From IMG/VR virus record IMGVR_UViG_3300042542_006078: a stretch of DNA of 64,000 bases; one strand, written 5' to 3'. The notes below the pieces were generated by a model. That model was not told the DNA's origin, ran no database searches, and saw only the letters and a program-made list of their open reading frames with translations. Of the stretch, positions 1 through 46,831 are shown in pieces. The stretch is from a virus. Lineage: Duplodnaviria; Caudoviricetes. The translations under genes were made by a program, and so were the position numbers. How positions within the stretch are numbered: position 1 is the first letter of the stretch; each line of letters opens with the position of its first letter.

Positions 1-593
1 TATCCGATCATAGTAATTGTTCCGTCATTTACTGGACGGAATTTAAGCAAGCAATATCCATCATCATATCCCCAATAAATAACGCCTTTTATTTTACTTT
101 TTATCCATTCGTTTTCAATTAAAAAAGGATTAACATCAGTGATGTGGTTATATTGATTTGTGACTAGTTTTTCGTCTATATCATCAAGATAATTTTGTGT
201 GAATTTTTGTGAAATTTTGAATTTCCTAAGTTGATCACTTAATTTGTAATTGTCGCCATGAATTCTTTTAGCCATATTTGTATGGAATACAAGATATTTA
301 TCAAGATCAGTGATTTTGAATTTTATTATAGCATTTCCGTAAGTTTCTGCCTTTCCCATAGTGCTTTCAAGATCAAAGACGAAGAACATACTATTTGGTT
401 GAAAGCTTTTATCAAAATTGGATAACATAGGATACTTGGATAACATAGGGTCGTCTTTATCATAATCGGATTTAGATCCATGTTGGAGTATTGAAAGTGC
501 ATTTTCAATTTCGTCGGTTCTATGATAAACTATTGCTGTTTTGCCATTACTGTCAATTTCTTCTTTAAGAAGCCATTGTTTGAAAGTAGTCAT
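1..593 (-). CDS. Partial (runs off left edge) ADP-ribosyltransferase/PARP-like protein with N-terminal capsid-targeting-like motif
   Basis: Not in the ORF track; translated by hand. ATG at 593, MTTFKQWLLKEEIDSNGKTAIVYHRTDEIENALSILQHGSKS...FFVFDLESTMGKAETYGNAIIKFKI, open to base 1. YHxT...I...G and YG...hKh resemble His-type ART strands. ATAAATA lies 4 nt upstream. Confidence 0.65.
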   Translation of the reverse strand, partial: MTTFKQWLLKEEIDSNGKTAIVYHRTDEIENALSILQHGSKSDYDKDDPMLSKYPMLSNFDKSFQPNSMFFVFDLESTMGKAETYGNAIIKFKITDLDKYLVFHTNMAKRIHGDNYKLSDQLRKFKISQKFTQNYLDDIDEKLVTNQYNHITDVNPFLIENEWIKSKIKGVIYWGYDDGYCLLKFRPVNDGTITMIG

Positions 594-696
594 GTTATAT
601 TTATCCTTAAACAAAAAAATGTTGTAATTCTAGGAATTGTTTGAATGTTATCATGGTTTATTTATTTTTTGTTTGTAAATATATGAGGTGATATAT

Positions 697-1200
697 TTAT
701 TTTGTTTTGATGTCCCACACCATCATTTGTTTATCGCCTCTTAAAAGGGCAGAAATAAAGCGACCTACTCCAAAAACAATTTCCCCATCTACCATTACGG
801 AAGGTTTAGCTGTTTCTCCAGTGAATTTTAGTGCCGTGTCCTTATATCGATTAGGTGTTGGATCATAAACCTTTCCCGGTTTTATTTGTAATCCCCATTT
901 TTGATTTATTTCTTGAACAACTTCTGATGGAGTTCGTGTTATTGATGAAAGGTTGTTTGGGTTTTTAAGCAAATCGGTCATGTTGTATTTAACTGGTTCT
1001 GGTCCGACTTGAAAAGAAGAGACCCAATCAATGTCTTCTTGTGTTGGTTCTTTTCTTTCGTCTAGAATTTCTTTTTGAAGAATTGATGGAAGTTTTGTTA
1101 ATGCTTGTATCCATTGTTGTGGTTTTCCCTGAAGTGCTTGTTGTGTGTTTATAGCACTCATCTTGTCTTGATTTTCGACAAATTGTTTGAAGGTGATCAT
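697..1200 (-). CDS. Tagged protein with degenerate ParB/Srx-like C-terminal domain
   Basis: Starts MITFKQFVEN. C-terminal KPSVMVDGEIVFGVGRFISALLRGDKQMMVW resembles ParB-N (P-h-h-h-DG-x-HR-h-x-A...G) with the core altered. Confidence 0.55.
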   Translation of the reverse strand: MITFKQFVENQDKMSAINTQQALQGKPQQWIQALTKLPSILQKEILDERKEPTQEDIDWVSSFQVGPEPVKYNMTDLLKNPNNLSSITRTPSEVVQEINQKWGLQIKPGKVYDPTPNRYKDTALKFTGETAKPSVMVDGEIVFGVGRFISALLRGDKQMMVWDIKTK

Positions 1201-1220
1201 GGTTTATTTAGTTTTTGTTT
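1180..1220. repeat. 41-bp exact direct repeat, copy 1 (copy 2 at 2052-2092), covering promoter box and MITFKQF codons
   Basis: aaattgtttgaaggtgatcatggtttatttagtttttgttt is present at both positions. Confidence 0.95.
1205..1211 (-). promoter_or_regulatory. T4-late-like promoter box CTAAATA (representative of 15 boxes located 4-5 nt before an ATG)
   Basis: NTAAATA, or ATAGATA, followed by 4-5 nt then ATG at 598-604, 1205-1211, 2077-2083, 2757-2763, 3731-3737, 5229-5235, 5539-5545, 6053-6059, 6227-6233, 9240-9246, 9610-9616(+), 10716-10722, 14587-14593, 17653-17659(+), 25922-25928(+). The T4 late consensus is TATAAATA. Confidence 0.8.
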
Positions 1221-1229
1221 ATGGTTTTA

Positions 1230-2072
1230 TCATTTCAGAATTTTTCTCACATTGCCAACATGATCGCTACCAGCGAAAAATATACCTCCTTGATTTTTCA
1301 TTAATTCTAATAAATGAGTATCACGCTGGATTTGAACCTCTGACTCCAAATTTGCAAGTTGGTTTGTGTTTGTTCGCCCTTTGACATAAAATATATTATA
1401 AGCCAAGTTTTGTCCTAGACTCAAAAACTTGTGCATATTTTGCGGTGTTGCTTCCATATCAAGCATTACAGACAAATGTGGTGTTTGTGAAAGTAATTTT
1501 CTTATATTTTCAGGTGATGCTTGTGCTGATTTAGATGCCCATGCTTGTTGATCGCCACTAGATGATTTAATTAACAATTCTAAAATTGTAGGAATATAAG
1601 AAGATGTAGAATTCCACTTTATTTGAGAAGTTCCTTTTTTATGGTTATTTTTAATTTGATGACCACCTTTTGCCATCTTATTTGCAACATCTGGATGTGA
1701 GTATATCATATACAACATATTTTTCGTATCTCCGCCGAAGATATCATTTAACAACGATCCTTGAGAGTTAATTTTTTTACCATGTTCTTCTGGCTCCCAT
1801 GAAAGAAGAGGCAGGTTTTCTAATTGGTTTTTTTGCAGGAAATCGACAACAATATGTTCAGCCTGATTTCCTTCATGCCAAACAGTAGTGCCTTTTTGCA
1901 TTAAATCTTTCATTTTATTGACACTTTGGTCGTCAGTTACTACTTCTTGACCATGTGAAACAGGAAATAGGACAGAATTTTGTAATGTAAGTGGTTGGTT
2001 AAATTTTGCTCTTACTAGGGAATAGGCCCTATTTTCTGCTTTTCCTTCGAGAAATTGTTTGAAGGTGATCAT
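1230..2072 (-). CDS. Tagged hypothetical protein
   Basis: 280 aa, starts MITFKQFLEG. C-terminal IFFAGSDHV is weakly reminiscent of TraB/ChaN-like G-x-x-H ends. Confidence 0.6.
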   Translation of the reverse strand: MITFKQFLEGKAENRAYSLVRAKFNQPLTLQNSVLFPVSHGQEVVTDDQSVNKMKDLMQKGTTVWHEGNQAEHIVVDFLQKNQLENLPLLSWEPEEHGKKINSQGSLLNDIFGGDTKNMLYMIYSHPDVANKMAKGGHQIKNNHKKGTSQIKWNSTSSYIPTILELLIKSSSGDQQAWASKSAQASPENIRKLLSQTPHLSVMLDMEATPQNMHKFLSLGQNLAYNIFYVKGRTNTNQLANLESEVQIQRDTHLLELMKNQGGIFFAGSDHVGNVRKILK

Positions 2073-2092
2073 GGTTTATTTAGTTTTTGTTT
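2052..2092. repeat. 41-bp exact direct repeat, copy 2
   Basis: Identical to 1180-1220. Confidence 0.95.
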
Positions 2093-2160
2093 GAATTTTC
2101 TTAAATTTCTTGTTTCATAGCTTGGATGTGATATGATACTAGATTTGTTTTCTTATTTAT

Positions 2161-2751
2161 TTATCCTAATATTTCTGGTTCTGTTTTTTTAGTCCATTTT
2201 TTTGTTTCTGGGTTTTTGACATATATTGCTATCAATTTGAGTGTTGGATAAGCAGAGTGGAGTATAGGAACTTCGTTTTCGATGTGTGAATCTTCTATTC
2301 CGACTTGACCTATTTTGTGTGGGTTCCAATATGATTCAACATCAGATCCTTTAGAAACTCCATGTCCAAGTATAGTTTTGCCCCACTGTTTCCAATCTAT
2401 TTGATCTCTGTTTGGCCCATCAAGTTCTGCTTCTACGATAATGTTGACTGTATTTTCTTTTCCTAGAAGGTATCCTTGTGAGCTTATTGCGCTTCCAGTT
2501 GCGAATCTTTCAGCAACTGGAAATTCAAGACTCCAAGGGTCTGATTGACCTTTATTTTTTTTGAATTCTGTTCCTTGAATGAGAATATCTCTGATTTTCA
2601 TTTTTCGTGATTCAACTGGCAATCTGACACCTCTGTATATCTTGGTTCCTTCCTTGATGTATTGCGAGTTCATATTGGAAAAATTACCATATGATGGTTC
2701 ACTTTGTGGTCTATTTGTTCTATTTTCGATGAATTTTTTGAAGGATATCAT
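2161..2751 (-). CDS. Putative R-S-E clade ADP-ribosyltransferase, tagged
   Basis: Starts MISFKKFIEN. Ordered motifs KIYRGV (R), PWSL (S) and ENEVPI (ExE), as in Alt/Mod/C2-like ARTs. Confidence 0.65.
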   Translation of the reverse strand: MISFKKFIENRTNRPQSEPSYGNFSNMNSQYIKEGTKIYRGVRLPVESRKMKIRDILIQGTEFKKNKGQSDPWSLEFPVAERFATGSAISSQGYLLGKENTVNIIVEAELDGPNRDQIDWKQWGKTILGHGVSKGSDVESYWNPHKIGQVGIEDSHIENEVPILHSAYPTLKLIAIYVKNPETKKWTKKTEPEILG

Positions 2752-2797
2752 GATAATATTTAGTTTATTTTTATGATTTTATCAAGTTGATAATTGT

Positions 2798-3307
2798 TTA
2801 GTTTATGATTACTTGTGGATTTTCTGAAATGAATTTGAAGTAGAATGGGTGGTTAAGAGTTTTGAGTCTCCACATGCTTGCTTCTTCGGGAGTTGCGGGT
2901 AATCTTTCGTCTGTCCAGTTGTGTTTTTTGACATTTTTTAGTTCTGGGTGTGGGTAAACAGTTATAAATTGTCCGTAGTGGTCTTGTATTCTTTTTCTTG
3001 TTCTTATTGCATCTGGAGATAGTGTTGTGTCTGATGCTAGTAGTGCGTTTACTGGTTTTATTGCGTATTTGACTACGAATTCAAGGGCGGCAAAGTATAA
3101 AATTGTTCCTGCTCCTTTTGATTGACCTTTTATGCTATGTACTGAGTAATATTTTGAATTCCAATAAAGTCTTATTGAACCTATGTTTTTTATTTCGAGA
3201 GTTGGTTGGTCTATTGTTCTTCCAGTTATGACAACCTCATATTCAGGATTTTCTAATTGGCTTCTTAGTATTTGGTCTTCGATTAAAAATTGTTTGAAAT
3301 TGATCAT
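2798..3307 (-). CDS. GNAT-like acetyltransferase, tagged
   Basis: Starts MINFKQFLIE. VHSIKGQSKGAGTILYFAALEFV resembles the acetyl-CoA-binding motif A, followed by LASDTTLSPDA. Confidence 0.55.
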   Translation of the reverse strand: MINFKQFLIEDQILRSQLENPEYEVVITGRTIDQPTLEIKNIGSIRLYWNSKYYSVHSIKGQSKGAGTILYFAALEFVVKYAIKPVNALLASDTTLSPDAIRTRKRIQDHYGQFITVYPHPELKNVKKHNWTDERLPATPEEASMWRLKTLNHPFYFKFISENPQVIIN

Positions 3308-3318
3308 TAGAATATTCC

Positions 3319-3726
3319 TTATTCTGGTTTAATGGTTATGACTTCGTCATTGACTAATTCGTATGTGTTCATTTTTTCTAGTGATTTTCGTAATAATGAA
3401 GATGCTTCATATTTGTTTACGAATAGACCTTTGGAGTAAAGGTTAGCTACTTTTTGAATAGCTGTTCTGTAGATGTTTTTGTTTTGGTATTTTTGGTCAT
3501 TTCTGGTTTCGGATTTCAGTTCGGTTTTGTATAGATGGAACATATTTTTGAATTGACCGAATTCTTGTTCAAATCCGCTTATATGTCCGATCATTTTTTC
3601 ATTATCATAGATGATATAGTTTATTCCATCTCCTGCTTTTATTTTAGTTATATATATATCATCTATATTGAGTGGTATTGCATTTGGTGGAATTTGGTTT
3701 TCTAAAAATTTTTTGAAGCTGGTCAT
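3319..3726 (-). CDS. Possible degenerate GNAT-fold protein, tagged
   Basis: Starts MTSFKKFLEN. YIIYDNEKMIGHI and YQNKNIYRTAIQKV resemble GNAT strands and motif A. Confidence 0.45.
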   Translation of the reverse strand: MTSFKKFLENQIPPNAIPLNIDDIYITKIKAGDGINYIIYDNEKMIGHISGFEQEFGQFKNMFHLYKTELKSETRNDQKYQNKNIYRTAIQKVANLYSKGLFVNKYEASSLLRKSLEKMNTYELVNDEVITIKPE

Positions 3727-3762
3727 ATTTTATTTAATCATATTGAAACTAATTTTTTAACA

Positions 3763-5223
3763 TTATCTTAATACTTCTGTCATGTAACTTTCAAGATTTG
3801 CAATTCCTTTTACTTTTTTGATTGGTACGAATTCATAGTTATTATCATCTGGTATAGAGATAACATATTCCAAGTTGTTTAACATTTTTTCATCGACTGA
3901 GTTTTTTGGATATTCATATCTTATCATAAATTTATATTCATCTGTTTTATATTTTTTGTTGTGTACATTTGATTTGTTTGTACGGAAATTAATTGTTTGT
4001 TGTTTGATGGTTCCCGAATACTGTTCTTGTGTGTTGATATTTTTTGCTCCTATCGTCTTAAGGATACGAGTTACTTTTATTGATGGATCAACAATTTTAT
4101 TTTCATGTAACCATTTTCTTATTTCTGGCGTGACTTGTGATTCTATGTTGTTGTCTTTGATATGTTTGCTTATTATGTTATAAGCTTCAAGTGCAACATT
4201 TGATATTTTTTCAAGTAGTTTTCTGTACATGCTTGGTTTCTTTTCCTTAAACCTAGTCATGTAAGATTTTACATCTTTGAATCCATTTGATTGAATTAAA
4301 GGATTAAATTTTTCTCTATGTGATTTTCCTTCTCTGATATAATTTATCAAGTCTTTGAAAACTGTTATTTGTTTTATAACCATTGCGCTTGGGTCGTCAT
4401 TTTTGATAGATTGTCTTGCGTAATTGATGACATAGTTAGCCCATCCAGATACATTTGCTATGAATTCTGGTTCTTGTTCAAAATATTTGCCGAATGCTTT
4501 TTTTCTTCCTTCTTCTGTACCATCGTGTTCAGAAGCAGACAAATAAGGAGCGAGTTTTGTTTTTTCTGAATCTTTTAGATGTTGTTGAAATTCTTCTTCT
4601 GGGTTTTTTCTGCCAAACAATTTACCAACACCAGTTTTGTCTAAAAGGGTTGATATTGGACCTCTGCCTCTTAATGCTTTTTCTTTTTTCATATATTCTT
4701 CAGGAGAACCACTTTTATATCTATATCCTTTTGATAAAGTTGGGTCGTATGCGTGAGCTAGTTCATGAGATAAAGTATCGTATAAATCTTCTAGTACTTT
4801 TTCTTTGTTATTATAGACGAATTTGTAAATTATTTCATGCGATGTTCCTTTTTCCAAAGAATCCAACCATTGTTGATTTTTTTCTAATTCTGGAAATGCC
4901 ATATTTGTTGTAATTACTATATGTGGTCTTTGGGAAAAAGCTTGTTGCCAGCCACCAGTTTTACTTTTTGATTCAATTGTTCTAACTGCCCAAACATCAT
5001 ATGTTCTTTTTTTGTTTTGATAAGGATCATTAAATTCAATTGTATCAACAAATTTGTATTTATCTGATTCTATTTTGCCTTCTTCTTTTTTTAGTTCAAT
5101 TAGTATTGGCAGCATTTTGTTTGCAATTTCATGCAATTTTTGTTGTATTTCTGGTGGAAAAATAATTGCTTTGGATTCATTAAAAAACCATTCTTTGAAT
5201 GAAAATGTTTTTGAATTATTCAT
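3763..5223 (-). CDS. Zincin-like metallopeptidase, tagged
   Basis: DTLSHELAHAYD (HExxH) with a downstream EPEF. Start moved to ATG 5223 (MNNSKTFSFKEWFFNE) because CTAAATA lies 5 nt upstream. Confidence 0.65.
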   Translation of the reverse strand: MNNSKTFSFKEWFFNESKAIIFPPEIQQKLHEIANKMLPILIELKKEEGKIESDKYKFVDTIEFNDPYQNKKRTYDVWAVRTIESKSKTGGWQQAFSQRPHIVITTNMAFPELEKNQQWLDSLEKGTSHEIIYKFVYNNKEKVLEDLYDTLSHELAHAYDPTLSKGYRYKSGSPEEYMKKEKALRGRGPISTLLDKTGVGKLFGRKNPEEEFQQHLKDSEKTKLAPYLSASEHDGTEEGRKKAFGKYFEQEPEFIANVSGWANYVINYARQSIKNDDPSAMVIKQITVFKDLINYIREGKSHREKFNPLIQSNGFKDVKSYMTRFKEKKPSMYRKLLEKISNVALEAYNIISKHIKDNNIESQVTPEIRKWLHENKIVDPSIKVTRILKTIGAKNINTQEQYSGTIKQQTINFRTNKSNVHNKKYKTDEYKFMIRYEYPKNSVDEKMLNNLEYVISIPDDNNYEFVPIKKVKGIANLESYMTEVLR

Positions 5224-5237
5224 GTTGATATTTAGTA

Positions 5238-5534
5238 TCACACGAAGAAATAATGAACATCTTTTTCGTCATCGTATAGCATAAACAAATCATGATTTTT
5301 ATCGTGGAGATAGATAGCATCTATGTCTTTAAGATTATTTGGCAAATTGACATTTTGCATGAATTGGTCTTTATTTATTTGTGTTGCATTTTCTTCAGAT
5401 TGGGCGAATTGTGTGGTGTCTTTGTATGGAATTTGTGGGATTGTGCAGTTTCCGTCTTCGTCGAATGAATTGACGCAATTTCCGACTAGTTGTTTTTTGT
5501 TTTTATTTTCTAGGAATATTCTGAATGATATCAT
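5238..5534 (-). CDS. Small tagged hypothetical protein
   Basis: 98 aa, starts MISFRIFLEN, CTAAATA 4 nt upstream. Confidence 0.7.
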   Translation of the reverse strand: MISFRIFLENKNKKQLVGNCVNSFDEDGNCTIPQIPYKDTTQFAQSEENATQINKDQFMQNVNLPNNLKDIDAIYLHDKNHDLFMLYDDEKDVHYFFV

Positions 5535-5602: not shown

Positions 5603-5622
5603 GAAGTTGTTGCATGGTGCGG

Positions 5623-6048
5623 TTACCTTCGTTTTCTGGGAAATTCATTAATAGCATCAATCCAGTCTGATTTTGATAGTGGGTATTTTTTATCTAAGGT
5701 TAAATATTCTTCTGGTGTATATCTGGCTTTAACTTTGCTGACATAAGAAGGTTTTTCTAAATAATGCGAAAACTGATCGAAAGTAGGGTCTATTTTTTCT
5801 CCATTCATTTCAATCCAAGTATGTTGTCTCAATTTGTCTTCTTGTTTATATTTGACCCATCCTTCAACTACGATGAAGTTTGTGATTCCTTTTTTGAGGG
5901 CTACTTTAGTGAACCAAGTGGCAAAAGCCATGCATGTTCCGACCTTTTTGCATTGAAGAATTTTTGCAATATTATTGGCAACATCTTTGGCTTTGTCTAA
6001 ATCAGACTTATCTTCTTGATTTTCAAGGAATATTCTGAATGATATCAT
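5623..6048 (-). CDS. Transglutaminase-like (Cys-His-Asp) protein, tagged
   Basis: Starts MISFRIFLEN. GTCMAFA...VVEGW...QHTWIEMNGEKIDPT fits the C-H-D triad spacing of the transglutaminase-like/papain-like superfamily. Confidence 0.7.
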   Translation of the reverse strand: MISFRIFLENQEDKSDLDKAKDVANNIAKILQCKKVGTCMAFATWFTKVALKKGITNFIVVEGWVKYKQEDKLRQHTWIEMNGEKIDPTFDQFSHYLEKPSYVSKVKARYTPEEYLTLDKKYPLSKSDWIDAINEFPRKRR

Positions 6049-7551: not shown

Positions 7552-7578
7552 CATTGATAATTAGTCTATTTCGGTCAT

Positions 7579-7962
7579 TTATTCGTCACCGTACTGGAAG
7601 TAGTTGGATTTACGGTCAAAGGATTTGAGTATTTCTGGGAGGTCTTCTCTGTTGTTTATATCATTAATATTTATGACATAACCTTTGCCACCTGATGTCA
7701 TCATTCTATATTGTCCTGTTCCAAATCCTCCTTCTTCTTGAGTTTTTCTCAAATCTATGATTTCCCCTGCTTTTGTTGTTCTTCTTGAAAATGTATCATC
7801 TTTGTGAAAAAGGAGTTCGTATTTTGATCCTGATTTTCTAATTTCTACTGATATTCCTTTTGATCTTAAGGAGTGATGATATTTATCATCTGGCAATATT
7901 TTCATTTCCTGAACTTGGCTTTCAATTTTCAATCTTTTGGATAGCCATTTATTGAATTTCAT
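7579..7962 (-). CDS. Tagged hypothetical protein
   Basis: 127 aa, starts MKFNKWLSKRLKIE. Confidence 0.6.
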   Translation of the reverse strand: MKFNKWLSKRLKIESQVQEMKILPDDKYHHSLRSKGISVEIRKSGSKYELLFHKDDTFSRRTTKAGEIIDLRKTQEEGGFGTGQYRMMTSGGKGYVININDINNREDLPEILKSFDRKSNYFQYGDE

Positions 7963-8013: not shown

Positions 8014-9234
8014 TTACATATTTCCGAGAAAAATTTCTTTTTCTTTTTGATTCATGGAGTTGGCTATTTCAGGGCCTTTCATGTGCATAAAATCTTTTGA
8101 ATTAGTTTGTTGTTTATAGTCAGCGAACTTATGAATGATGTTATTTTTTTGTAGTTTGGCAAATTCTAAGATATCATCTTTTGATCCTTGAAGAATTTCT
8201 TTTCTTTTGATTAGAGGAATGATTGGTGATGTTTCGAGGTTGTTGAGTTTGAGTAGTAGTTCAACTTTGTCTGAAACATCGTTTGTGTATTTGAGTGCTG
8301 ATAGTTTCTTTCTTACTTCTGTTGGTTCTGTGTTATCTCTCAAAATGAATGCTAGAGAAGCTGGGAAGCTTTTGACGCTTTCGATGTTTTGAGTATTTAC
8401 AATAAGTCCGGGTAGTACTGCTGGGAATAGTCCCAATTCTTGGTAATTTTTGAGGTAGCTTGATTTGTCTTTTGCTGATTTGAATCCGCTCATGAATTCT
8501 GCAACTATTCTTTCTCCTGATACACCTTCTAGTGTTTTGTATTTTTCTATTGCTCCGAGAGTATCGGAATCAAGTTGGTCTTTGATTCTGTTTGCATTAA
8601 ATCTACTGAAGAATCGGATCAATCTTAGTACTCTGAGTTTATCTTCTCTGAATCTGTCATATGGATTGCCTACTGGTCTTGCGACAAGGTTTTTGATGTC
8701 TTCAATTCCTTGGCCTTTTCCATTTGTTGTGTTGAAGTCAAGAATAGTTTTTTTATCGATGTCATAGAAAAGGGCATTCATGGTGAGGTCACGCCTGCTC
8801 GCATCTTTATCTGCTGTTGAGAAGCTTACTTTATCAGGTCTTCTTCCATCACCTGATATTGGATCATAATATTCTTCACGGAAAGTAGCTATTTCATATT
8901 CGTTGCCATTAAGGATTGCGGAAATGACACCGAATGCTTCTCCTTTTGGAAGTACTTTAATTCCGTGTCTAAGAGAATCTTGGCTTTTAAGAATTGCTGT
9001 TATTTGATCTGGTGTTGCATCTGTGGTGAGATCGACATCTTTTGGTCCAGAACCTTTTCCAGCCATGTGAAAATGGCTTATGAGGAAGTCACGAATTACT
9101 CCTCCTACTGCATAAAGTTTCTTGTTGTGTTTCTTGAATAGATCATTAAGAACCATGATATCATTAGGCATCGGTATTTCGATGTTGATATATTCTGCTT
9201 TTTCTTCGTTTTCAAGCCAAAGTTTGAATTTCAT
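8014..9234 (-). CDS. cca: Class II tRNA nucleotidyltransferase (CCA-adding enzyme / poly(A) polymerase family), motifs intact, tagged
   Basis: YAVGGVIRD, KDVDL (DxD), ATFREE..GRRPDKV loop, RRDLTMNAL, EDKLRVLRLIRF, SGERIVAEF. Start moved to ATG 9234 (MKFKLWLENE), which has ATAAATA 5 nt upstream. Confidence 0.9.
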   Translation of the reverse strand: MKFKLWLENEEKAEYINIEIPMPNDIMVLNDLFKKHNKKLYAVGGVIRDFLISHFHMAGKGSGPKDVDLTTDATPDQITAILKSQDSLRHGIKVLPKGEAFGVISAILNGNEYEIATFREEYYDPISGDGRRPDKVSFSTADKDASRRDLTMNALFYDIDKKTILDFNTTNGKGQGIEDIKNLVARPVGNPYDRFREDKLRVLRLIRFFSRFNANRIKDQLDSDTLGAIEKYKTLEGVSGERIVAEFMSGFKSAKDKSSYLKNYQELGLFPAVLPGLIVNTQNIESVKSFPASLAFILRDNTEPTEVRKKLSALKYTNDVSDKVELLLKLNNLETSPIIPLIKRKEILQGSKDDILEFAKLQKNNIIHKFADYKQQTNSKDFMHMKGPEIANSMNQKEKEIFLGNM

Positions 9235-9336: not shown

Positions 9337-9624
9337 ATGCAATACACGACTGTAATTCGTTGTTCTGGTTCTGATTTTGTTGGTAAAGACAAGAATGCTT
9401 TTAAGTCAGCTTTGGCTGCAAAGAAAGGTTTGAATTTGCCCAAAAAGGTTCATGTTTCGATTTCATTGGTTTTGGATGGTACTGAGATATTTCGTTCTCA
9501 TGGATTGGGTTTGAAGAGTGCTTTTTGGAGTTTTAAGGATAAATTGAGAAAGATGAAATTTGAAAGTAAAATTTTGATTGTCAAACCAATTACTTTGGTT
9601 TCGAGAGAGATAAATAAGGCATGA
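9337..9624 (+). CDS. Basic hypothetical protein
   Basis: AGGAG at 9324-9328 precedes ATG 9337; stop overlaps the next start (ATGA). Confidence 0.55.
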   Translation: MQYTTVIRCSGSDFVGKDKNAFKSALAAKKGLNLPKKVHVSISLVLDGTEIFRSHGLGLKSAFWSFKDKLRKMKFESKILIVKPITLVSREINKA

Positions 9625-10214
9625 TTTATTTTAAGTCTTGGTTAGAGAGTTCTGATTCTTTTCCAAGATATCTTTATCATGTAACTCCATCTTGTGATGA
9701 AGTTTTGAAAACTGGATTCAAGACTTCATCGCAATTGCCGCCCGGTTCGACTGTAATGGGTGGTAGTCATCAAAATTCTGTTAGTTTTACTTATGATTTG
9801 AAATGGGCCTATTATTATAAAGAGGCATTAGAAGAAGTCCGAGATATGTTAAATGATTCGGATTACATGTATAGCGATAAAATGTGGGACAGATTGCTTA
9901 AAAAGTTTCCTCTTTCTTCTAATGGCAGATATCTGATTGATTTAACAAAAAATATGATATATCCAAAAAAAGATGAACATGAAAAGATGCAGTTGTTTTT
10001 TCATATGCTTCCTCAAATATTTGATGGTCATTTCCCATTGATTTTTGGATCTGGATTAAAGAGAAGGCTTTCTGGAAATCCAAATATTTGCATATTAAAA
10101 GTTGACACTAGTGGATTATCATTGGATTTGGGGGAATCTAATCCAAAAGAAAAAGAAATTAGAGTTAAAAATCCAGAATTAATTAGTCTTGATAGAATCG
10201 ATGTTGTTTCGTGA
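9621..10214 (+). CDS. ADP-ribosyltransferase-fold protein (Tpt1/PARP-like His type), tagged
   Basis: Starts MIYFKSWLES. YLYHVT...VLKTGFK, SVSFTYD, ILKVD, EKEIRV. ATAAATA 4 nt upstream. Confidence 0.6.
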   Translation: MIYFKSWLESSDSFPRYLYHVTPSCDEVLKTGFKTSSQLPPGSTVMGGSHQNSVSFTYDLKWAYYYKEALEEVRDMLNDSDYMYSDKMWDRLLKKFPLSSNGRYLIDLTKNMIYPKKDEHEKMQLFFHMLPQIFDGHFPLIFGSGLKRRLSGNPNICILKVDTSGLSLDLGESNPKEKEIRVKNPELISLDRIDVVS

Positions 10215-10225
10215 ATCAATAATCT

Positions 10226-10711
10226 TCACTTTGCTTCTATCCAAACTGGAATTTCTGTTCTTCCTGCGTTTTTGTATGATTGCATTCTATGATGTCCGTC
10301 TCTAACCGAGTAATTATCGGGTGTTCCTTGTACTGTTATTGCTTCTGTATCTTTATTTGGATATCTTTTTAGATATGCTGTATATTTTGTAACTGTTCTA
10401 GGAGAATAAAGTTCTCTTTGTCCTATTGCGCTCCCTTTGAATCCTGATATTGGATATATTTTTTTGACAAACACTCCATCCATCGAGTTAAGATATTCAG
10501 TTCCATTGATTATAGCTCTGAATCCAACTCGTTGTTTTTTGAGGAATGGCATCAAATCCATTCTTCCAGCTTTGAATTCTTTTTCTGCTTCAATTGCAAT
10601 TTTATCGCTAAGGGGGATATATCCCAAATTAGGGTTTAACCTAGGTCTTTGGACAACCTTGTATTCAAGAGGGTTAGATTCACAGAAAATAAGAAAATCT
10701 TTGAAGTTCAT
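10226..10711 (-). CDS. ParB/Srx-like domain protein, tagged
   Basis: Starts MNFKDFLIFCE. AITVQG...YSVRDGHHRMQSYKNAGRTEIPVWI is a typical ParB-N motif. Confidence 0.75.
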   Translation of the reverse strand: MNFKDFLIFCESNPLEYKVVQRPRLNPNLGYIPLSDKIAIEAEKEFKAGRMDLMPFLKKQRVGFRAIINGTEYLNSMDGVFVKKIYPISGFKGSAIGQRELYSPRTVTKYTAYLKRYPNKDTEAITVQGTPDNYSVRDGHHRMQSYKNAGRTEIPVWIEAK

Positions 10712-10714
10712 GTT

Positions 10715-11842
10715 TTATTTATTCAATTTCAAGTCAATTTTTTCCCAAGAAAATTCATTTCTTCCGAAATGTCCTCCGCTTGCTGTAGCTGAATAAATTG
10801 GTTGTCGAAGTTGAAGTCTATCGATGATTGATTTGGGATTGAGTGGTACATTTTTAGTGATGAGTTGTGTGAGTTCTTCATCATTTCCTGTTCCGAATGT
10901 TTGCACACGGATTGAAACAGGTTCTATTACTCCTATTGCGTATGATACTTGAACTTGGCATTTTTTGGCGAATCCTTGTGATACCAAGTTTTTGGCTACA
11001 TGTCTTGCTGCGTATGCTGCACTTCTGTCTACTTTAGTTGGGTCTTTGCCGCTAAAGCTTCCTCCTCCTATTGGGCAATCTGCTCCGTAATTATCAACGA
11101 CGATTTTTCTGCCGCTTAGTCCTGTATCTGCTGCTGGCCCTCCAAGAGTCCAAAGTCCAGCAGGGTTGTATAACCATTTAGTTGTATTGTTCACTAATTG
11201 GCCAAAATCTTTAGTAATTGCCGGATAAACGATTTCATGGACATATTCATGAAGTTTTTCTATATTTTTGAAAACACCTTCACGATGTTGAGTTGAGACA
11301 AGTATTGTATCGATATATTTTGGATTTCCATCATTGTCATATGCTATGGTTACTTGGCTTTTTGCGTCTGGTAAAAGTGTATTAGAAATTGTTCTATTTT
11401 CTTTAAGTGCGTTAATTGCCACAAAGCTTAGATGATGGGCAAGAGGCATGAGTGGTTTTGTTTCATTGCAAGCAAATCCGAACATAAGTCCTTGGTCGCC
11501 CGCTCCGATATTTCCATCTTCTTTAGCTACTGCTTGAGCAATTTGCGATGATTGTCTATTGAGGTGATCAAGAATTTTAATTGTATTTCCGTCATAGCTT
11601 GTTTCTGGTGAGTTGTAGCCTATTTCGGTTATTTTTCTACGGACAAGTTTTTCAATGTCGAGTTTTTTTGATGATGATGTTTCACCTGTAACGAGTACGA
11701 GTTCTTTGCAACATGTTACTTCGACTGCGACACGGCTATTTGGTTCTAATTCCAAGTATGCATCAAGAATGGTATCTGCTATTTGGTCTGCGACCTTGTC
11801 TGGATGACCGTTTGAAACTGCTTCGCTTGTCCAAAGATACAT
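10715..11842 (-). CDS. metK: S-adenosylmethionine synthetase
   Basis: TSEAVSNGHPDKVADQI, GAGDQGLMFGFA, GGPAADTGLSGRKIVVDNYG, GGGSFSGKDPTKVDRSAAY. GAGGT RBS upstream. Confidence 0.97.
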   Translation of the reverse strand: MYLWTSEAVSNGHPDKVADQIADTILDAYLELEPNSRVAVEVTCCKELVLVTGETSSSKKLDIEKLVRRKITEIGYNSPETSYDGNTIKILDHLNRQSSQIAQAVAKEDGNIGAGDQGLMFGFACNETKPLMPLAHHLSFVAINALKENRTISNTLLPDAKSQVTIAYDNDGNPKYIDTILVSTQHREGVFKNIEKLHEYVHEIVYPAITKDFGQLVNNTTKWLYNPAGLWTLGGPAADTGLSGRKIVVDNYGADCPIGGGSFSGKDPTKVDRSAAYAARHVAKNLVSQGFAKKCQVQVSYAIGVIEPVSIRVQTFGTGNDEELTQLITKNVPLNPKSIIDRLQLRQPIYSATASGGHFGRNEFSWEKIDLKLNK

Positions 11843-12084: not shown

Positions 12085-12612
12085 TCAGAATTTTCTTATT
12101 GATTTAAGATTTTTGAATTTTGAGTCAGGTATGATATCAGATGGTTTGTCCAATTTTTCTCCAACATGTTGCATGTGTTTTCTAACTCCACGCTCATTTT
12201 GGCCGACTCTCTTGTGAATTGGCGGGAAATTTGTTTCCATCCATTGGATGATTGCTTTTGGATCGCCTTCACTTCCGCATGTGAAAACATCAATATTGAG
12301 AAGTCCTTTTTCTGGCCATGTGTGGACTACGATGTGGCTTTGTCCTAGGACGATGAGATATGTGAATCCTGATTCTGGCTTGTTGTCATAAAGAGTCAGT
12401 CTTTTGTCGAAAACTTTCATGTTTCCATGTTCGGCTGCTTTGACTAGTGAATCAATAAGTGTTTCCTTATTGGCGACCTGTAGAAAATCGCTTTTTTCAG
12501 GATGATACCAAAAATCAACATTAAGGCTTAATCCAGAGCAATAATCACCTGTTGGAGTGTGAATTATTTCTGATTGTTCTTCTTCAATTAGCCATTTTTT
12601 GAAATCAATCAT
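12085..12612 (-). CDS. speD: Pyruvoyl-dependent S-adenosylmethionine decarboxylase family protein, tagged
   Basis: GFTYLIVLGQSHIVVHTWPEKGLLNIDVFTCG (consensus G-x-T-x-h-h-h-L-x-ESH-h-x-h-HTWPE...DhFTCG). Starts MIDFKKWLIEE. Confidence 0.88.
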   Translation of the reverse strand: MIDFKKWLIEEEQSEIIHTPTGDYCSGLSLNVDFWYHPEKSDFLQVANKETLIDSLVKAAEHGNMKVFDKRLTLYDNKPESGFTYLIVLGQSHIVVHTWPEKGLLNIDVFTCGSEGDPKAIIQWMETNFPPIHKRVGQNERGVRKHMQHVGEKLDKPSDIIPDSKFKNLKSIRKF

Positions 12613-18262: not shown

Positions 18263-18865
18263 TTAAGCAAAACTATATGTCACTCTTATTGTTGCAGTCA
18301 TTTCTGGAACTCCAATGTTGGTGCAAATTTTGTGTTTTTTTGCTTCTTTTGATGTAAGAAACCAGTCTGCGTGTCCTTTTTCGTGAATGATTTTATCAAA
18401 ATAATCGGTTTGTTGGCCGCAGTTTTCAGCCAACAAACTGAATATTAGCTTGTTGAGTCTTTCTAGTTCTTTTGCATCACTCTTAACTTCTTCTATTTTT
18501 CCTCCTGTCCAAGTTGCCGCATCGTGAAGCATGAGTGTGGCGTGTTCTGCCATCCATCTGGTTTTTCCCATTCCGAAAAGTATTGCTCCAGCAGACATGG
18601 CTTTACCAGTAACAATTGTGTGGACTGGAAGAGATGCCTTTTTCAAATAGTTAATCATACTAAGGCAACCATAAACACTTCCTCCGTATGAGTCGATAAG
18701 AACAGGGATCAGTGGTTGACCAGTATGATGAGCCTTTTCCATATCTTCACGGAAAATTCTCACCCCATTGTCATCAAATGTAGTGACTACAACAATAACT
18801 GGCTGATCAATCAGTTCATTGTGTTTCGCTCGTATGACAGAATCAACCAATAACTTCTTGAACAT
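18263..18865 (-). CDS. clpP: ClpP-family serine protease
   Basis: IDSYGGSVYGCLSM, GKAMSAGAILF (Ser), LMLHD (His), DWFLTSKEAKK (Asp region). Confidence 0.9.
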   Translation of the reverse strand: MFKKLLVDSVIRAKHNELIDQPVIVVVTTFDDNGVRIFREDMEKAHHTGQPLIPVLIDSYGGSVYGCLSMINYLKKASLPVHTIVTGKAMSAGAILFGMGKTRWMAEHATLMLHDAATWTGGKIEEVKSDAKELERLNKLIFSLLAENCGQQTDYFDKIIHEKGHADWFLTSKEAKKHKICTNIGVPEMTATIRVTYSFA

Positions 18866-39238: not shown

Positions 39239-39325
39239 ATAATTTGTTGTACAAGTTTGTAAGATTGATAAATAAAAAGTATTTTAGGAAAACCGTCATA
39301 ATTTGGCGGGAGGAAATAATATAAT

Positions 39326-39742
39326 ATGGCTACATTTGGCGGTGTTCCCTACCCAACAGTAAAAACACCAAGGGGTTATTGGTATTCACAGACTGGAAGC
39401 AGTCAGATCAAGTCTGATTTGCTTTGTCTTCTTTTGACAAATCCGGGTGAAAGGGTAATGATTCCAGATTTTGGCACTCCTCTTAAAAAACTATTATTTG
39501 AGCAAAATGATGTTGTTTTGAGGAATGAAGTGAAAAGAGTTATATCTTCTGCTATAAAAAAGTGGGAGCCTAGAATTGTTGTGCAAAATATTGAGGTTTC
39601 TTCTCAAATTGACGAAAATTCTTTGAATAATGATGATGACAGAAGCTCTATAGATAGCATTATATCTGTTAAAATAATTTTCGTTGATCCACAGAATATT
39701 AAACAGGTGGAACAACTTGTACTTGAAATTCCACTAAGTTAG
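39326..39742 (+). CDS. gp25/gpW-like baseplate wedge, sheath initiator
   Basis: IKSDLLCLLLTNPGERVMIPDFGTPLKKLLFE...IKKWEPRI. Confidence 0.92.
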   Translation: MATFGGVPYPTVKTPRGYWYSQTGSSQIKSDLLCLLLTNPGERVMIPDFGTPLKKLLFEQNDVVLRNEVKRVISSAIKKWEPRIVVQNIEVSSQIDENSLNNDDDRSSIDSIISVKIIFVDPQNIKQVEQLVLEIPLS

Positions 39743-44769: not shown

Positions 44770-45248
44770 AAGATCTAATTAACAGTATCAAGACCCGTGG
44801 CGATGTGCAGATGATAATAGATTATGCTTGTGGAAAGCGTGAGATTATTGAGTTTCCAAACACGGTATTAAATAATGGTCGTGAAGCTCTAGCTGCTTCT
44901 CTCGGAAACAAATTTACTGGAAATTATAGTTTCTACATTAACAGGATGATTTTTGGAACTGGTGGAACTACTGGCGGAAATGTAAAATTCGTTGATGCTG
45001 GTAGAAATGGTTTGTTTTGTGGTTCTCCAGTTTCATCAAAGCCCGTCATATCCGCAATTGATCCTAATGTTAATTCGCAGATAATTTTGACCTCTGTTTT
45101 GGCAACTGGTGATGCAGTTGGCGAAACTCTCAACGAGATGGCATTACAAATGGCCACTGGTGATTTGTACAGTATGGTTACATTTCCTGATTTGACTAAA
45201 ACAGATCAGATGAGTATCATTTGGAATTGGACTCTAAGCTTTATCTAA
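44766..45248 (+). CDS. Baseplate/tail-fibre attachment domain protein
   Basis: NTVLNNGREALA...LNEMAL...YSMVTFPDLTKT...WTLSF resembles tail-collar/fibre N-terminal domains. Confidence 0.6.
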   Translation: MKDLINSIKTRGDVQMIIDYACGKREIIEFPNTVLNNGREALAASLGNKFTGNYSFYINRMIFGTGGTTGGNVKFVDAGRNGLFCGSPVSSKPVISAIDPNVNSQIILTSVLATGDAVGETLNEMALQMATGDLYSMVTFPDLTKTDQMSIIWNWTLSFI

Positions 45249-45263
45249 TATTGAAGGGGGAAA

Positions 45264-46100
45264 ATGCCTGACTTAAATGGTTTACCAGTTCCACAATACA
45301 ATGCTGGCCAGCCTTATCACTGGGAATATGACAATCTGCCTTTGCAAACATTGGCTGATAGGGATGATCTGATCAATGCTGTTGTAGACACTCATCAAGA
45401 GATTTTAAGAAATAGTGCTGGCACTGTAGGAACATTGGCTAATCGTCTTGATCAATCGATTCAAGATGATGGTAATTTGCTTACTAGTGCTGTTAATGAT
45501 GCCTTGCACAATATTGCAAAACATACAGATGGTAGTACTACCGTTTCTGGTTCTGATCTTACAGATTACCAAAATCTTGGTTATGTGACAGTAAGCAATC
45601 CTGTTCCTTTTGTGAGGATGCTAGAGGCGGAGAGAGATAAGCTTTCTCTTGTTGCAGATGAAGCCACTAAGTTGTTGGTTGATGTCAACACGCCATCTCT
45701 TGTTTATACATTCGGTGATGGTGGTATTGACAATCTTGTCTTGGCTGAGTCAACTAGTATTGGATGGACATTTGAAGGCCCGAATAGCGTAAAGCCGGAA
45801 ATTAAATTTTCTATTGCTTTTGCCCATCGTCATTATTATGATTTAGAACCAATAACTAGCAATTACATCAATTTTCAGGTCAATAGCCCATCTACTCCAT
45901 ACATGGAAGACAGTTTGCGAGTTTATATCAATGGTGTGAGACTTAATTCAGAGTATAATGTATATGTTCCAAACAACACCGTAAGCACATGGACTTCCAA
46001 TAGGTTCACTCCAAGTCATCTTGCTGGGACATTTGCGCTTGCGACTGCAATCAATGCTTCTGATATAATCAGAATTGATTTTGATGTAGCTGTAACATAG
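45264..46100 (+). CDS. Tail-associated structural protein
   Basis: N-terminal coiled segment; C-terminal SLRVYINGVRL beta domain; in the tail operon. Confidence 0.55.
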   Translation: MPDLNGLPVPQYNAGQPYHWEYDNLPLQTLADRDDLINAVVDTHQEILRNSAGTVGTLANRLDQSIQDDGNLLTSAVNDALHNIAKHTDGSTTVSGSDLTDYQNLGYVTVSNPVPFVRMLEAERDKLSLVADEATKLLVDVNTPSLVYTFGDGGIDNLVLAESTSIGWTFEGPNSVKPEIKFSIAFAHRHYYDLEPITSNYINFQVNSPSTPYMEDSLRVYINGVRLNSEYNVYVPNNTVSTWTSNRFTPSHLAGTFALATAINASDIIRIDFDVAVT

Positions 46101-46108
46101 GAGCTTGC

Positions 46109-46831
46109 ATGTCATTTATAAACTGGGTGAAGAATAGAGATAATGATCTTTATTGTGAGTTCATCTTGCAGGATGAGTATGGCAATGAAAATACAGACAG
46201 CAAAAAAGAACTTGTTGTTCTGGTCGGACCTCCAGCAGTTGGCAAAAGCACATATATAGCTCAAAAATTTCATTCAGATGATGTTTTTGTTGTAAGTCGT
46301 GATGAAATAGTTGATCGTGTATCAAAAGATTACGACATGACATATGATGATATGTTTGCATTACCTCCAAAAGATGCTTTGCCAAATACTAGCGTGGCTG
46401 GAATGGAAAAGTATGGGAATGTGCAAAAAGCTCCTTTGTGGATGAAATGGACTCCCGTGGTTTTCGATAGAGTTCAAGAAGCGAATGATAGAATAAATAA
46501 TTTATTGCAAAAAAGATTTGCTGATGCAGTAAATTCTGACCTGAATATTGTTGTTGATATGACAAACATGACAGCTTCTGTTCGCAAGAACGCTTTGAAA
46601 CATGCAGACAAAAAAGATTATTTCAAAAGAGCGGTGGTTTTTACATTTCAGGATTCTGATCTTCCTGAATTGATGAGAAGAATGAAAGAAAGAAGCGATA
46701 AGATTAGAAAGCAGGGAGGAAGCAAAACAATTGGCGAAGATGTCGTCAATAGAATGATTCAAAGTTTTGAAGCTATAGATCCGAAAGAAGGATTTGACCG
46801 AGTTGACACAATCAATACTTTTTCTGTTTGA
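46109..46831 (+). CDS. P-loop kinase, polynucleotide-kinase-like (AAA_33 type)
   Basis: VVLVGPPAVGKSTY, VVSRD, VVDMTNMTASVR, lid RMKER. Starts MSFINWVKNRD. Confidence 0.8.
   Translation: MSFINWVKNRDNDLYCEFILQDEYGNENTDSKKELVVLVGPPAVGKSTYIAQKFHSDDVFVVSRDEIVDRVSKDYDMTYDDMFALPPKDALPNTSVAGMEKYGNVQKAPLWMKWTPVVFDRVQEANDRINNLLQKRFADAVNSDLNIVVDMTNMTASVRKNALKHADKKDYFKRAVVFTFQDSDLPELMRRMKERSDKIRKQGGSKTIGEDVVNRMIQSFEAIDPKEGFDRVDTINTFSV

What the first reader, a model, noticed from the sequence alone, without database searches (positions are those of the whole stretch)
1..46831. About 17 unrelated enzymes share a T4-like capsid-targeting N-terminal tag: a candidate virion-packaged enzyme payload
Seen: N-termini MTTFKQWLLKE(593), MITFKQFVE(1200), MITFKQFLE(2072), MISFKKFIE(2751), MINFKQFLIE(3307), MTSFKKFLE(3726), ..TFSFKEWFFNE(5223), MISFRIFLE(5534, 6048), MKFNKWL..IE(7962), MKFKLWLE(9234), MIYFKSWLE(9621), MNFKDFLIFCE(10711), MIDFKKWLIEE(12612), MKNFLEYL..KE(21407), MKSLFSKY..RE(22873), MSFINWV(46109). 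Downstream of the tag the proteins are unrelated. Neighbours such as metK, clpP and the glycosyltransferases lack it. Established: T4 IPII/IPIII use the N-terminal MKTYQEFIAE to enter the prohead, and gp21 removes it after Glu. Inference: this phage tags a large, swappable set of enzymes for packaging and injection. The domain repertoire (ART, GNAT, zincin, papain/transglutaminase-like, ParB) matches that of phage polyvalent proteins, but here each domain is its own tagged gene.
Basis: partly seen in the sequence, partly recalled or inferred. Interest (0 to 1): 0.92.

Follow-up and report, generated by a model that had tools for sequence, protein, structure and literature searches.

The report
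T4-type capsid-targeting tags, huge phage
A fragment of an uncultured huge lake phage puts a near-copy of phage T4's "load me into the head, then cut me off" peptide on some twenty unrelated proteins, so its packaged and probably injected protein kit may be readable from sequence; no virion data exist yet.

Summary
In the 137-kb record that holds the window, 19 of 171 called genes begin with M-x-x-F-[KRQ]-x-[FWY]-[LIVM]-(0-3 aa)-E, against 0.85 expected. Thirteen lie in the window, plus three looser matches and one doubtful one. With the tag removed, no two cargos are alike.

The tag is almost the T4 capsid targeting sequence (IPI MKTFKEF..., IPII/III MKTYQEFIAE). It is conserved at the T4 positions mapped for targeting (4, 7) and for processing (8, Glu). 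The phage encodes a gp21-type S77 prohead protease with the His and Ser motifs kept, and a gp23-type capsid protein.

New here:
- 16 of 19 tagged genes lack a Shine-Dalgarno site. They carry a T4-late-promoter-like TAAATA box 4-5 nt before the ATG, which suggests leaderless late mRNAs.
- Near-identical strains differ by whole cassettes, with breakpoints at that box.
- Tagged proteins are basic.

Assigned cargo is a CCA-adding enzyme, an AdoMet decarboxylase and an ADP-ribosyltransferase-fold protein.

Packaging, cleavage and injection are inferred, not shown. The scan has noted the same kind of tag before on other DNA. Verdict: a large, cassette-borne variant of the known T4 system.

The parts
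1..593 (-). Tagged gene, MTTFKQWLLKEE. 344 aa, runs on past the window start. The N-terminal domain has a YHRT motif; an ART/RES-like fold is a weak lead only.
   Evidence: TAAATA box 4 nt before the ATG. In homologues the tag is 54-77% identical while the rest is 27-34%. MbcT and ParT match at Z 5.1-5.3.
607..668 (-). Orphan 5' module: box + ATG + MITFKQFLE, then a stop after 15 codons. Read as a recombination scar.
697..1200 (-). Tagged gene, MITFKQFVEN, 167 aa, no family.
   Evidence: Box CTAAATA + 4 nt.
1230..2072 (-). Tagged gene, MITFKQFLEG, 280 aa, no family.
   Evidence: Its 5' module is identical over about 40 nt to that of 697-1200.
2161..2751 (-). Tagged gene, MISFKKFIEN, 196 aa. 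An empty box just downstream of its stop (2160-2164) marks the strain breakpoint.
2798..3307 (-). Tagged gene, MINFKQFLIE, 169 aa. It has an AAGGAA ribosome site instead of the box.
3319..3726 (-). Tagged gene, MTSFKKFLEN, 135 aa.
3763..5223 (-). Tagged gene with the tag set back 5 residues (MNNSKTFSFKEWFFNE), 486 aa. It holds an HELAH motif. In close strains the same cargo bears MNSFKQFLKIQE.
   Evidence: No family.
5238..5534 (-). Tagged gene, MISFRIFLEN, 98 aa.
   Evidence: Shares a 5' region of about 110 nt with the next gene (D1 and D3).
5623..6048 (-). Tagged gene, MISFRIFLEN, 141 aa. Its cargo is unrelated to that of 5238-5534.
7579..7962 (-). Loosely tagged gene, MKFNKWLSKRLKIE, 127 aa, with a ribosome site.
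8014..9234 (-). Tagged tRNA nucleotidyltransferase (CCA-adding type), MKFKLWLEN, 406 aa.
   Evidence: PolyA_pol E 5e-24, phrog_2244 E 9e-43; the domain starts at residue 38-40.
9621..10214 (+). Tagged protein with an ADP-ribosyltransferase fold, MIYFKSWLES, 197 aa, YHVT motif.
   Evidence: AF2 pLDDT 80, with tag residues 1-10 below 50. Nearly all of the 45 best VIA matches are ART-superfamily chains, Z 4.7-7.8. Atlas leads. Orthologues keep the tag.
10226..10711 (-). Tagged gene, MNFKDFLIFCE, 161 aa, with a DGHHR motif (ParB-like lead only).
10715..11842 (-). metK (S-adenosylmethionine synthetase), untagged neighbour.
   Evidence: Three S-AdoMet_synt domains starting at residue 2.
12085..12612 (-). 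Tagged S-adenosylmethionine decarboxylase, MIDFKKWLIEEE, 175 aa, with a ribosome site.
   Evidence: AdoMet_dc E 2e-19; the match starts at residue 46.
18263..18865 (-). ClpP-family protease, untagged. It is separate from the S77 prohead protease.
   Evidence: CLP_protease E 6e-20.
20814..21407 (-). Loosely tagged HAD phosphatase of the RNA-repair type, MKNFLEYLCMKE.
   Evidence: HAD_SAK_1 E 4e-15. A HAD_SAK_1 protein of LR756511.1 starts MNLNFRQYVE.
21404..22873 (-). Loosely tagged second PolyA_pol/CCA-type enzyme, MKSLFSKYIKLREE, 489 aa. ATAAATA box 27 nt upstream.
46109..46831 (+). Doubtful tag (MSFINWV) on an AAA_33 kinase-like protein among tail genes.
39262..39742 (+). Reference late gene: a baseplate wedge (gp25-like) gene with a GATAAATA box 51 nt upstream and a normal leader.

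Best explanation
The shared N-terminus is a T4-type capsid targeting sequence (CTS). Proposed course of events, all inferred by analogy with T4: late in infection each tagged protein is made; its first 9-13 residues bind the scaffolding core of the assembling prohead through aromatic residues 4 and 7; the shell closes around it; and the gp21-type prohead protease cuts after the Glu that follows the hydrophobic pair, which frees the mature protein inside the head. The mature proteins are mostly basic. They would then travel with the DNA and probably enter the next host at injection, as T4 IPI-III and Alt do. Each cargo gene sits in its own cassette: a T4-late-promoter-like TAAATA box, 4-5 nt, the ATG, the tag, the cargo, a stop. 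The box would start the mRNA at or next to the AUG, giving a leaderless late message. The roughly 45-nt 5' module, the only sequence the cassettes share, also serves as the site where cassettes are gained, lost and re-tagged between related phages. Shown here: the tag, its enrichment, its likeness to the T4 CTS, the protease and capsid genes, the box and its spacing, and the cassette breakpoints. Inferred: binding, cleavage, packaging, ejection and the transcription start.
For: 1. Enrichment: 19 of 171 genes against 0.85 expected, and a Glu within 0-3 residues after the core in all 19.
2. Likeness to T4: the T4 record gives IPI MKTFKEF... and IPII/III MKTYQEFIAE, against M[IKT][TS]FKQF[LI]E here.
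3. T4 genetics puts targeting at residues 4 and 7 and processing at residues 8 and 10 (PMC9026906). Those are the conserved positions here, and they are invariant across homologues only 27-34% identical elsewhere: M1, F4, W7, L8, E11.
4. Selection acts on the peptide. Third codon positions vary (Leu as CTA, CTC, CTT or TTA) and F, W and Y interchange. The same tag occurs in phages of 40-57% GC behind unrelated upstream DNA, for example L061 and L065.
5. The head machinery is T4-like. Peptidase_S77 scores E 5e-25 and is 31% identical to T4 gp21, with GELDHP and GISSRG aligned to GELNH85P and GVS140SRG. Gp23 scores E 4e-87. An acidic coiled-coil protein lies between the two genes.
6. The cargos are unrelated to each other, and AF2 models the tag as a low-confidence appendage outside the fold.
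7. Tagged proteins are basic, like the T4 internal proteins: median pI 8.8 against 6.2, p=4e-4.
8. One cargo has an ART fold, as T4 Alt does.
9. The tag is absent from the early-like block, the structural genes, metK and clpP.
10. Late timing: the box precedes 16 of 19 tagged genes against 2 of 152 untagged (p=1e-17). The same box lies 15-51 nt ahead of baseplate and other structural operons. T4 late promoters are TATAAATA at -13 to -6 (PMC1524935). The closest complete relative has two matches to the gp55 family.
11. Cassette exchange: strains 97-99% identical differ by four cassettes against one, and the identity breaks at the box. An orphan module lies at 607-668.
Against: There are no virion proteome, N-terminal sequence, transcript or isolate data, so every functional step is by analogy. 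Glu sits at position 9 in most tags (F-L-E) rather than 10, which puts Phe rather than Leu or Ile at P3 of the presumed cut site. An AdoMet decarboxylase and a CCA-adding enzyme are odd cargo for a capsid. No gp55 homologue was found in this 31%-complete fragment. With T4's -13 to -6 geometry, the commonest 4-nt spacing puts +1 on the U of the AUG, so a leaderless start needs a 1-nt shift. Some conservation is at DNA level: TTC is used for Phe4 in 17 of 20 tags against 39% genome-wide. That could reflect shared descent of the module or a second, RNA-level role.
Confidence: 0.72

Rival explanations
1. The tag does send proteins into the prohead core, but they are assembly or in-capsid components (core fillers, DNA counter-ion or polyamine chemistry, maturation helpers). 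They are degraded or stay in the head and are not delivered to the next host.
For: In T4, gp67, gp68 and gp22 enter the core and are largely destroyed (PMC5694885; PMC9026906). AdoMet decarboxylase next to metK would fit polyamine supply for DNA condensation. The tagged 120-aa gene lies directly beside the portal gene.
Against: The cargo set turns over between near-identical strains, which is typical of host-interaction genes and not of assembly parts. The ART-fold, Nudix and tRNA-repair-type enzymes act on host molecules.
Confidence: 0.1
2. The peptide is a signal for something other than the capsid: an N-terminal degron for the phage ClpP or a host Clp system that times protein removal, or a common handle for a host or phage partner.
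For: The phage encodes a ClpP-family protease apart from the head protease. From my own knowledge, some ClpX substrates carry N-terminal motifs with a Thr-hydrophobic-basic pattern.
Against: The tag matches the T4 CTS residue for residue at the positions mapped as functional. The conserved Glu after the hydrophobic pair fits a gp21-type cut site and is not needed by a degron. No ClpX partner was seen. Tags also occur in other IMG/VR phages that encode S77.
Confidence: 0.1
3. The conservation lies in the nucleic acid, not the peptide. A shared promoter, leaderless translation start or recombination module about 45 nt long has been copied in front of many genes, and the peptide is a by-product.
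For: The box and its 4-5-nt spacing are tightly conserved. TTC-AAA is over-conserved against codon usage. The module is a 7-copy direct repeat, and the breakpoints lie in it.
Against: Third codon positions of most tag codons are free, while F/W/Y and L/I/V/M classes are kept. Tags occur with ordinary ribosome sites in this genome (3307, 12612). They also occur behind unrelated upstream DNA in 40-57% GC phages. The tag stays 54-77% identical where the cargo has drifted to about 30%.
Confidence: 0.05

Closest known systems
[quoted passage not shown]
   Same: An N-terminal tag of about 10 residues with nearly the same sequence, including aromatic residues at 4 and 7 and a hydrophobic residue followed by Glu. 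The cargos are otherwise unrelated and mostly basic. A gp21-type protease and a gp23-type shell are present. The loci are hypervariable between strains.
   Different: T4 has three such proteins, and at least 10 are reported across the T-evens. Here there are 19-24 in about a third of one genome. Cargo includes sizeable enzymes (up to 486 aa) rather than small nuclease inhibitors. Glu is usually at position 9. T4 ip genes have normal ribosome sites, whereas most genes here have a promoter-like box abutting the ATG. The host and lineage are far from Tequatrovirus: the capsid protein is 30% identical to gp23.
T4 Alt, the packaged ADP-ribosyltransferase
   Same: A head-packaged enzyme with a short N-terminal propeptide removed by gp21. 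The 197-aa tagged protein here has an ART fold.
   Different: No sequence similarity to Alt was tested or seen. Its catalytic residues and target are unknown.
Propeptide-bearing ejection proteins of phiKZ and SPN3US giant phages (PMC5694885)
   Same: Many internal head proteins processed after Glu by a gp21-related protease. Paralogues share N-termini.
   Different: Those propeptides are mostly over 100 residues and are not one portable decapeptide. The phage lineage also differs.
PeSL mobile regulatory cassettes of T4-type phages (PMC2839356, PMC4122927)
   Same: A short conserved regulatory motif flanks small variable genes and is the apparent site of insertion, deletion and replacement between close relatives (titles and abstracts only).
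   Different: PeSLs are early promoter-terminator stem-loops. Here the repeat is a late-promoter-like box fused to a start codon and a coding tag. I did not test for a stem-loop.
Polyvalent proteins of phages and conjugative elements (Iyer et al. 2017, cited in PMC7824862)
   Same: An injected set of counter-host enzyme domains such as ART.
   Different: Those are single giant multidomain proteins. Here each domain is a separate gene with its own tag. No shared domain family was demonstrated, apart from a weak LPD23 lead at 0.84.

Membership tests
T4-type CTS / internal protein system | The tag starts at Met1 and is about 10-19 residues long | tested here: met
   The tag is set back by 5 residues in one gene (5223).
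T4-type CTS / internal protein system | Targeting determinants at residues 4 and 7 (aromatic in IPIII: Y4, F7) | tested here: met
   F4 in all strict tags and F/W/Y at position 7. F4 and W7 are invariant in distant homologues. The T4 mapping comes from PMC9026906.
T4-type CTS / internal protein system | Processing determinants: an aliphatic residue at 8 and Glu at 10 (gp21 cuts after Glu) | tested here: met
   L/I/V/M at 8 and Glu within 0-3 residues in 19 of 19. Glu is at 9 in 12 of 19, a one-residue shift from IPIII.
T4-type CTS / internal protein system | A gp21-family (S77) prohead protease with catalytic His and Ser | tested here: met
   PF03420 E 5e-25. 31% identical to T4 gp21, with the GELDHP and GISSRG motifs aligned. 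The residue numbering H85/S140 is from my own knowledge.
T4-type CTS / internal protein system | A gp22-type scaffolding core to which the tag binds | tested here: inconclusive
   A 299-aa acidic, L-x-E-rich protein lies between the protease and capsid genes, but it matches no family.
T4-type CTS / internal protein system | Cargo proteins unrelated apart from the tag | tested here: met
   No BLASTP pair at E<0.01 once the tag is trimmed.
T4-type CTS / internal protein system | Proteins found in virions, N-terminally processed and ejected into the host | not testable with these tools
   The phage is uncultured and no proteome or RNA run is listed.
T4-type late transcription (gp55 promoter) | A TATAAATA box | tested here: met
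   The core TAAATA is kept while the first two positions vary, as reported for other T4-like phages.
T4-type late transcription (gp55 promoter) | A gp55-family sigma factor | tested here: inconclusive
   None in this 31%-complete fragment. There are two phrog_234 matches (E 7e-8 and 2e-5) in the closest complete relative, LR756511.1.
T4-type late transcription (gp55 promoter) | The box lies at -13 to -6 of a mapped transcript start | not testable with these tools
   No RNA data. The geometry puts +1 on or next to the A of the ATG.
ADP-ribosyltransferase superfamily (protein 9621-10214) | The ART fold | tested here: met
   Nearly all of the 45 best VIA matches are ART-superfamily chains, Z 4.7-7.8, 80-110 residues aligned, rmsd 2.4-5.0. 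Foldseek E-values are not significant.
ADP-ribosyltransferase superfamily (protein 9621-10214) | A catalytic triad (H-Y-E or R-S-E) | tested here: inconclusive
   Invariant YHVT, SVSFT and EKEIR motifs in orthologues. They were not mapped onto a template.
Polyvalent proteins | Many effector domains in one giant polypeptide | tested here: not met
   Cargo is encoded as separate genes of 98-486 aa.

The most novel reading that the evidence does not exclude
Each cargo gene is a self-contained plug-in cassette. A gp55-type late promoter is fused directly to the start codon, so the message is leaderless and is read only when made from its own late promoter. A capsid address and a cleavage site follow. 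The same 45-nt module is the recombination handle that moves cargo between phages. Huge T4-related phages would then carry dozens of such cassettes (several percent of their genes), including tRNA-repair, SAM-metabolism, Nudix and ADP-ribosylating enzymes. That would be a sequence-readable, rapidly exchangeable injected enzyme arsenal.
Probability: 0.35. Interest if true: 0.75.

Novelty: new variant of a known kind. Interest (0 to 1): 0.6.

Why it matters
If the tag works as in T4, the packaged (and probably injected) proteome of uncultured T4-related huge phages can be listed from sequence alone. That gives a ready catalogue of candidate first-minute counter-defence enzymes, most of unknown fold. 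It also extends the T4 rule from a few small nuclease inhibitors to dozens of enzymes. It shows how such cargo is exchanged: as cassettes with breakpoints in the shared 5' module. And it raises a testable point about gene expression, namely late-promoter-driven leaderless mRNAs in a phage that otherwise uses strong ribosome sites. The tag is close enough to T4's own that it can be tested directly in T4.

Tried and rejected
- Megablast of window 1-12700 against the phage records found no match.
- Pfam and PHROGs gave nothing usable for most cargo, even at E up to 1.
- The Atlas feature search of the 486-aa and 344-aa proteins returned only unnamed viral clusters.
- Foldseek against the PDB with the 197-aa model gave no match at E<=0.001.
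- The VIA search with the 344-aa model (pLDDT 66) was filled by its C-terminal helical repeats. Only two ART/RES-like rows matched the N-terminal domain, at Z about 5.
- A search with T4 gp55 as a single sequence found nothing in either genome.
- Sequencing runs: no RNA holder is listed. The DNA is held in lake-water metagenome runs from 18 studies, so I did not lay reads.
- Complex prediction of the tag (residues 1-40 of the 280-aa protein) with the 299-aa putative scaffold gave no verdict.
- Co-occurrence of tags with PF03420 in seven IMG/VR records was mixed and the sample too small to read. Two tagged high-GC phages have S77. One record whose pattern match was not a gene start also has it. 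Fragments lack it.
- I considered and rejected paralogy as the cause of the shared N-termini, and a signal peptide, because the tag is not hydrophobic enough and contains Lys and Glu.

Full report
**What the window is.** The window is the minus strand of bases 32200-96199 of a single 136,667-bp IMG/VR virus record. CheckV rates the record 31% complete. It has about 35% G+C. Near-identical DNA is held in lake-water metagenome runs from 18 studies.

Its capsid protein is 81% identical to that of LR756511.1, a 595-kb uncultured 'huge phage', and about 30% identical to T4 gp23. My own simple gene call gives 171 genes in the record.

**The observation.**
- A strict pattern, F-[KRQ]-x-[FWY]-[LIVMF] near the N-terminus, is met by 19 of 171 genes. 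The expectation from the internal rate of the same pattern is 0.85.
- Thirteen of these lie in the window. Six lie just outside it, four of them continuing the same minus-strand cluster.
- A looser pattern gives 24 against 1.8 expected. The 21407 gene fell outside my gene call and was read directly.
- Every strict tag is followed by Glu within 0-3 residues.
- With the tag trimmed, no two tagged proteins match at BLASTP E<0.01.
- metK and clpP lack the tag.

**Peptide or DNA?** Both layers are conserved, but the peptide layer is clear.
- Third codon positions of most tag codons are free (Leu as CTA, CTC, CTT or TTA; Thr as ACA, ACC or ACT). F, W and Y interchange at position 7, and L, I, V and M at position 8.
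- The same tag is found in IMG/VR phages of 40-57% G+C behind unrelated upstream DNA, for example seven tags in L061 and MITFKEYIAE in L065.
- In homologues of the 344-aa cargo that have drifted to 27-34% identity, the first 13 residues stay 54-77% identical. M1, F4, W7, L8 and E11 are invariant.
- Against this, TTC for Phe4 is used in 17 of 20 tags against 39% genome-wide. So the DNA module also shows shared descent or a second constraint.

**Comparison with T4.** Read from the T4 record, IPI starts MKTFKEF and IPII/III start MKTYQEFIAE. The tag here is M[IKT][TS]FKQF[LI]E.
- The review of Black's work reports that only the first 10 residues of IPIII are needed. Targeting depends mainly on residues 4 and 7, and processing on residues 8 and 10 (PMC9026906). 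Those are the conserved positions here.
- T-even internal proteins are described as diverse proteins that share only this signal. At least 10 are known, and they are recognised by the signal (PMC3012670; PMC12373910).
- The machinery is present. A Peptidase_S77 protein (E 5e-25) is 31% identical to gp21, with the His and Ser motifs aligned. A Gp23 capsid protein scores E 4e-87. Between the two genes lies an acidic protein rich in L-x-E, which looks like a scaffold but matches no family.
- AF2 models the tag as a low-confidence appendage outside the cargo fold.
- Tagged proteins are basic, as T4 internal proteins are: median pI 8.8 against 6.2, p=4e-4.

**What the cargo is.**
- Assignable: a CCA-adding type nucleotidyltransferase (8014-9234) and an AdoMet decarboxylase next to metK (12085-12612).
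- One 197-aa protein has an AF2 model of pLDDT 80. Nearly all of its 45 best VIA matches are ADP-ribosyltransferase-superfamily chains, at Z 4.7-7.8.
- Loosely tagged: a HAD phosphatase of the RNA-repair type and a second PolyA_pol enzyme.
- In relatives, tagged cargo includes a Nudix protein, recognised by its motif, a C39-like peptidase and a HAD_SAK_1 protein.
- The rest match nothing.

- Sixteen of the 19 tagged genes have (C/A)TAAATA followed by 4-5 nt and the ATG, and only 3 of 19 have a Shine-Dalgarno-like site. Among untagged genes, 2 of 152 have the box and 87 of 152 have such a site (Fisher p=1e-17).
- The 4-5-nt spacing recurs in LR756511.1 and in the IMG/VR relatives.
- The same box lies 15-51 nt upstream of baseplate and other structural operons that do have ribosome sites.
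- T4 late promoters are TATAAATA at -13 to -6 (PMC1524935). LR756511.1 has two matches to the gp55 late-sigma family.
- I therefore read the box as a late promoter. It is placed so that transcription starts on or next to the AUG, giving leaderless mRNA. This is inference: no RNA data exist, and the commonest 4-nt spacing needs a 1-nt shift from the T4 geometry.

**Cassette exchange.**
- Three IMG/VR contigs (L054, L059, L070) are 97-99% identical to the window on both sides of a replaced segment. Here that segment holds four cassettes plus an orphan module. There it holds a single Nudix cassette.
- Identity breaks exactly after GGATAAATA on one side and resumes at the box of the next gene on the other. 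In between, one cargo has changed its tag from MKTFKQFMEN to MISFKLFLEN.
- The 5' module is a 7-copy, 45-nt direct repeat in the window.
- At 607-668 a module is followed by a stop after 15 codons.
- So the units are swappable, and the shared module is the likely recombination site. This resembles the PeSL cassettes of T4-type phages.

**The relative.** LR756511.1 has 21 strict-pattern N-termini against 4.1 expected. About 15 more variants (MKTFNQWLE, MKTFAEWIVE and the like) turn up among genes preceded by the box.

**Verdict.** The most likely reading (0.72) is a T4-type capsid-targeting and cleavage tag on a large, late-expressed, exchangeable set of proteins. The rivals are:
- capsid targeting without delivery to the host (0.10);
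- another peptide function, such as a Clp degron (0.10);
- a purely nucleic-acid module (0.05).

The kind is known from T4. The scale, the enzyme cargo, the promoter-start-tag fusion and the cassette breakpoints make it a new variant.

Earlier notes of this scan describe similar tags on other genomes and further along this one. Of the same-genome note, I verified only the four tags that lie inside the record I could read.

Noticed in passing
L001:2357-3229 (-), equal to window coordinate 92971-93843 (+), outside the window: The tagged 290-aa protein starts MEFRNFIENASLNE, and Cys15 follows directly. It has a weak match to the AAT/C45 Ntn-hydrolase family (E 0.0018, below the cut-off). A cut after LNE would expose Cys as the new N-terminus, which is the nucleophile position in that enzyme class. 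So tag removal might also activate the enzyme. This is speculative.
   Followed up: partly
window 8014-9234, 20814-21407, 21404-22873, 46109-46831: A possible RNA-repair set: two PolyA_pol/CCA-type nucleotidyltransferase paralogues (25% identical), a HAD_SAK_1 phosphatase and an AAA_33 kinase-like protein. Three of the four carry strict or loose tags.
   Followed up: partly
window 10715-12612: metK (untagged) sits close to a tagged AdoMet decarboxylase, which suggests a SAM to decarboxy-SAM pathway in a phage.
   Followed up: no
L003 and L004 (window coordinates about -33300 to -2400, outside the window): The early-like block of small plus-strand genes has strong GGAG sites. It also holds a dispersed repeat ending ...GAAGCAAAGCCGATAT just before ATG (about ten copies, 80-96% alike over 70-170 nt). 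This is probably an early promoter/leader family. No tags occur in this block.
   Followed up: partly
window 6061-6222 (-) and 17664-17831 (+); L001 for 94315-94941: Three untagged small ORFs also have the TAAATA box 4-6 nt before the ATG, so the box-at-start arrangement is not strictly limited to tagged genes.
   Followed up: no
window 26509-34635 (+): A 2708-aa ORF with an ATAAATA box 39 nt upstream matches no PHROG family. It stands at the head of the tail/baseplate block.
   Followed up: no
L001:3326-4852 (-), equal to window coordinate 91348-92877: A 509-aa protein next to the capsid gene combines Mom-like/GNAT, TnsA-like endonuclease and HNH/endonuclease VII-like matches.
   Followed up: no
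window 15235-15861 (+) and 18263-18865 (-): A Peptidase_C39-like protein with a hydrophobic N-terminus, and a ClpP-family protease. Both are untagged, and both are extra to the S77 head protease.
   Followed up: no
L059:5423-5916 (IMG/VR relative): The cassette that replaces four of this window's cassettes in a 97-99% identical strain encodes a tagged 159-aa protein with a Nudix-box motif.
   Followed up: partly
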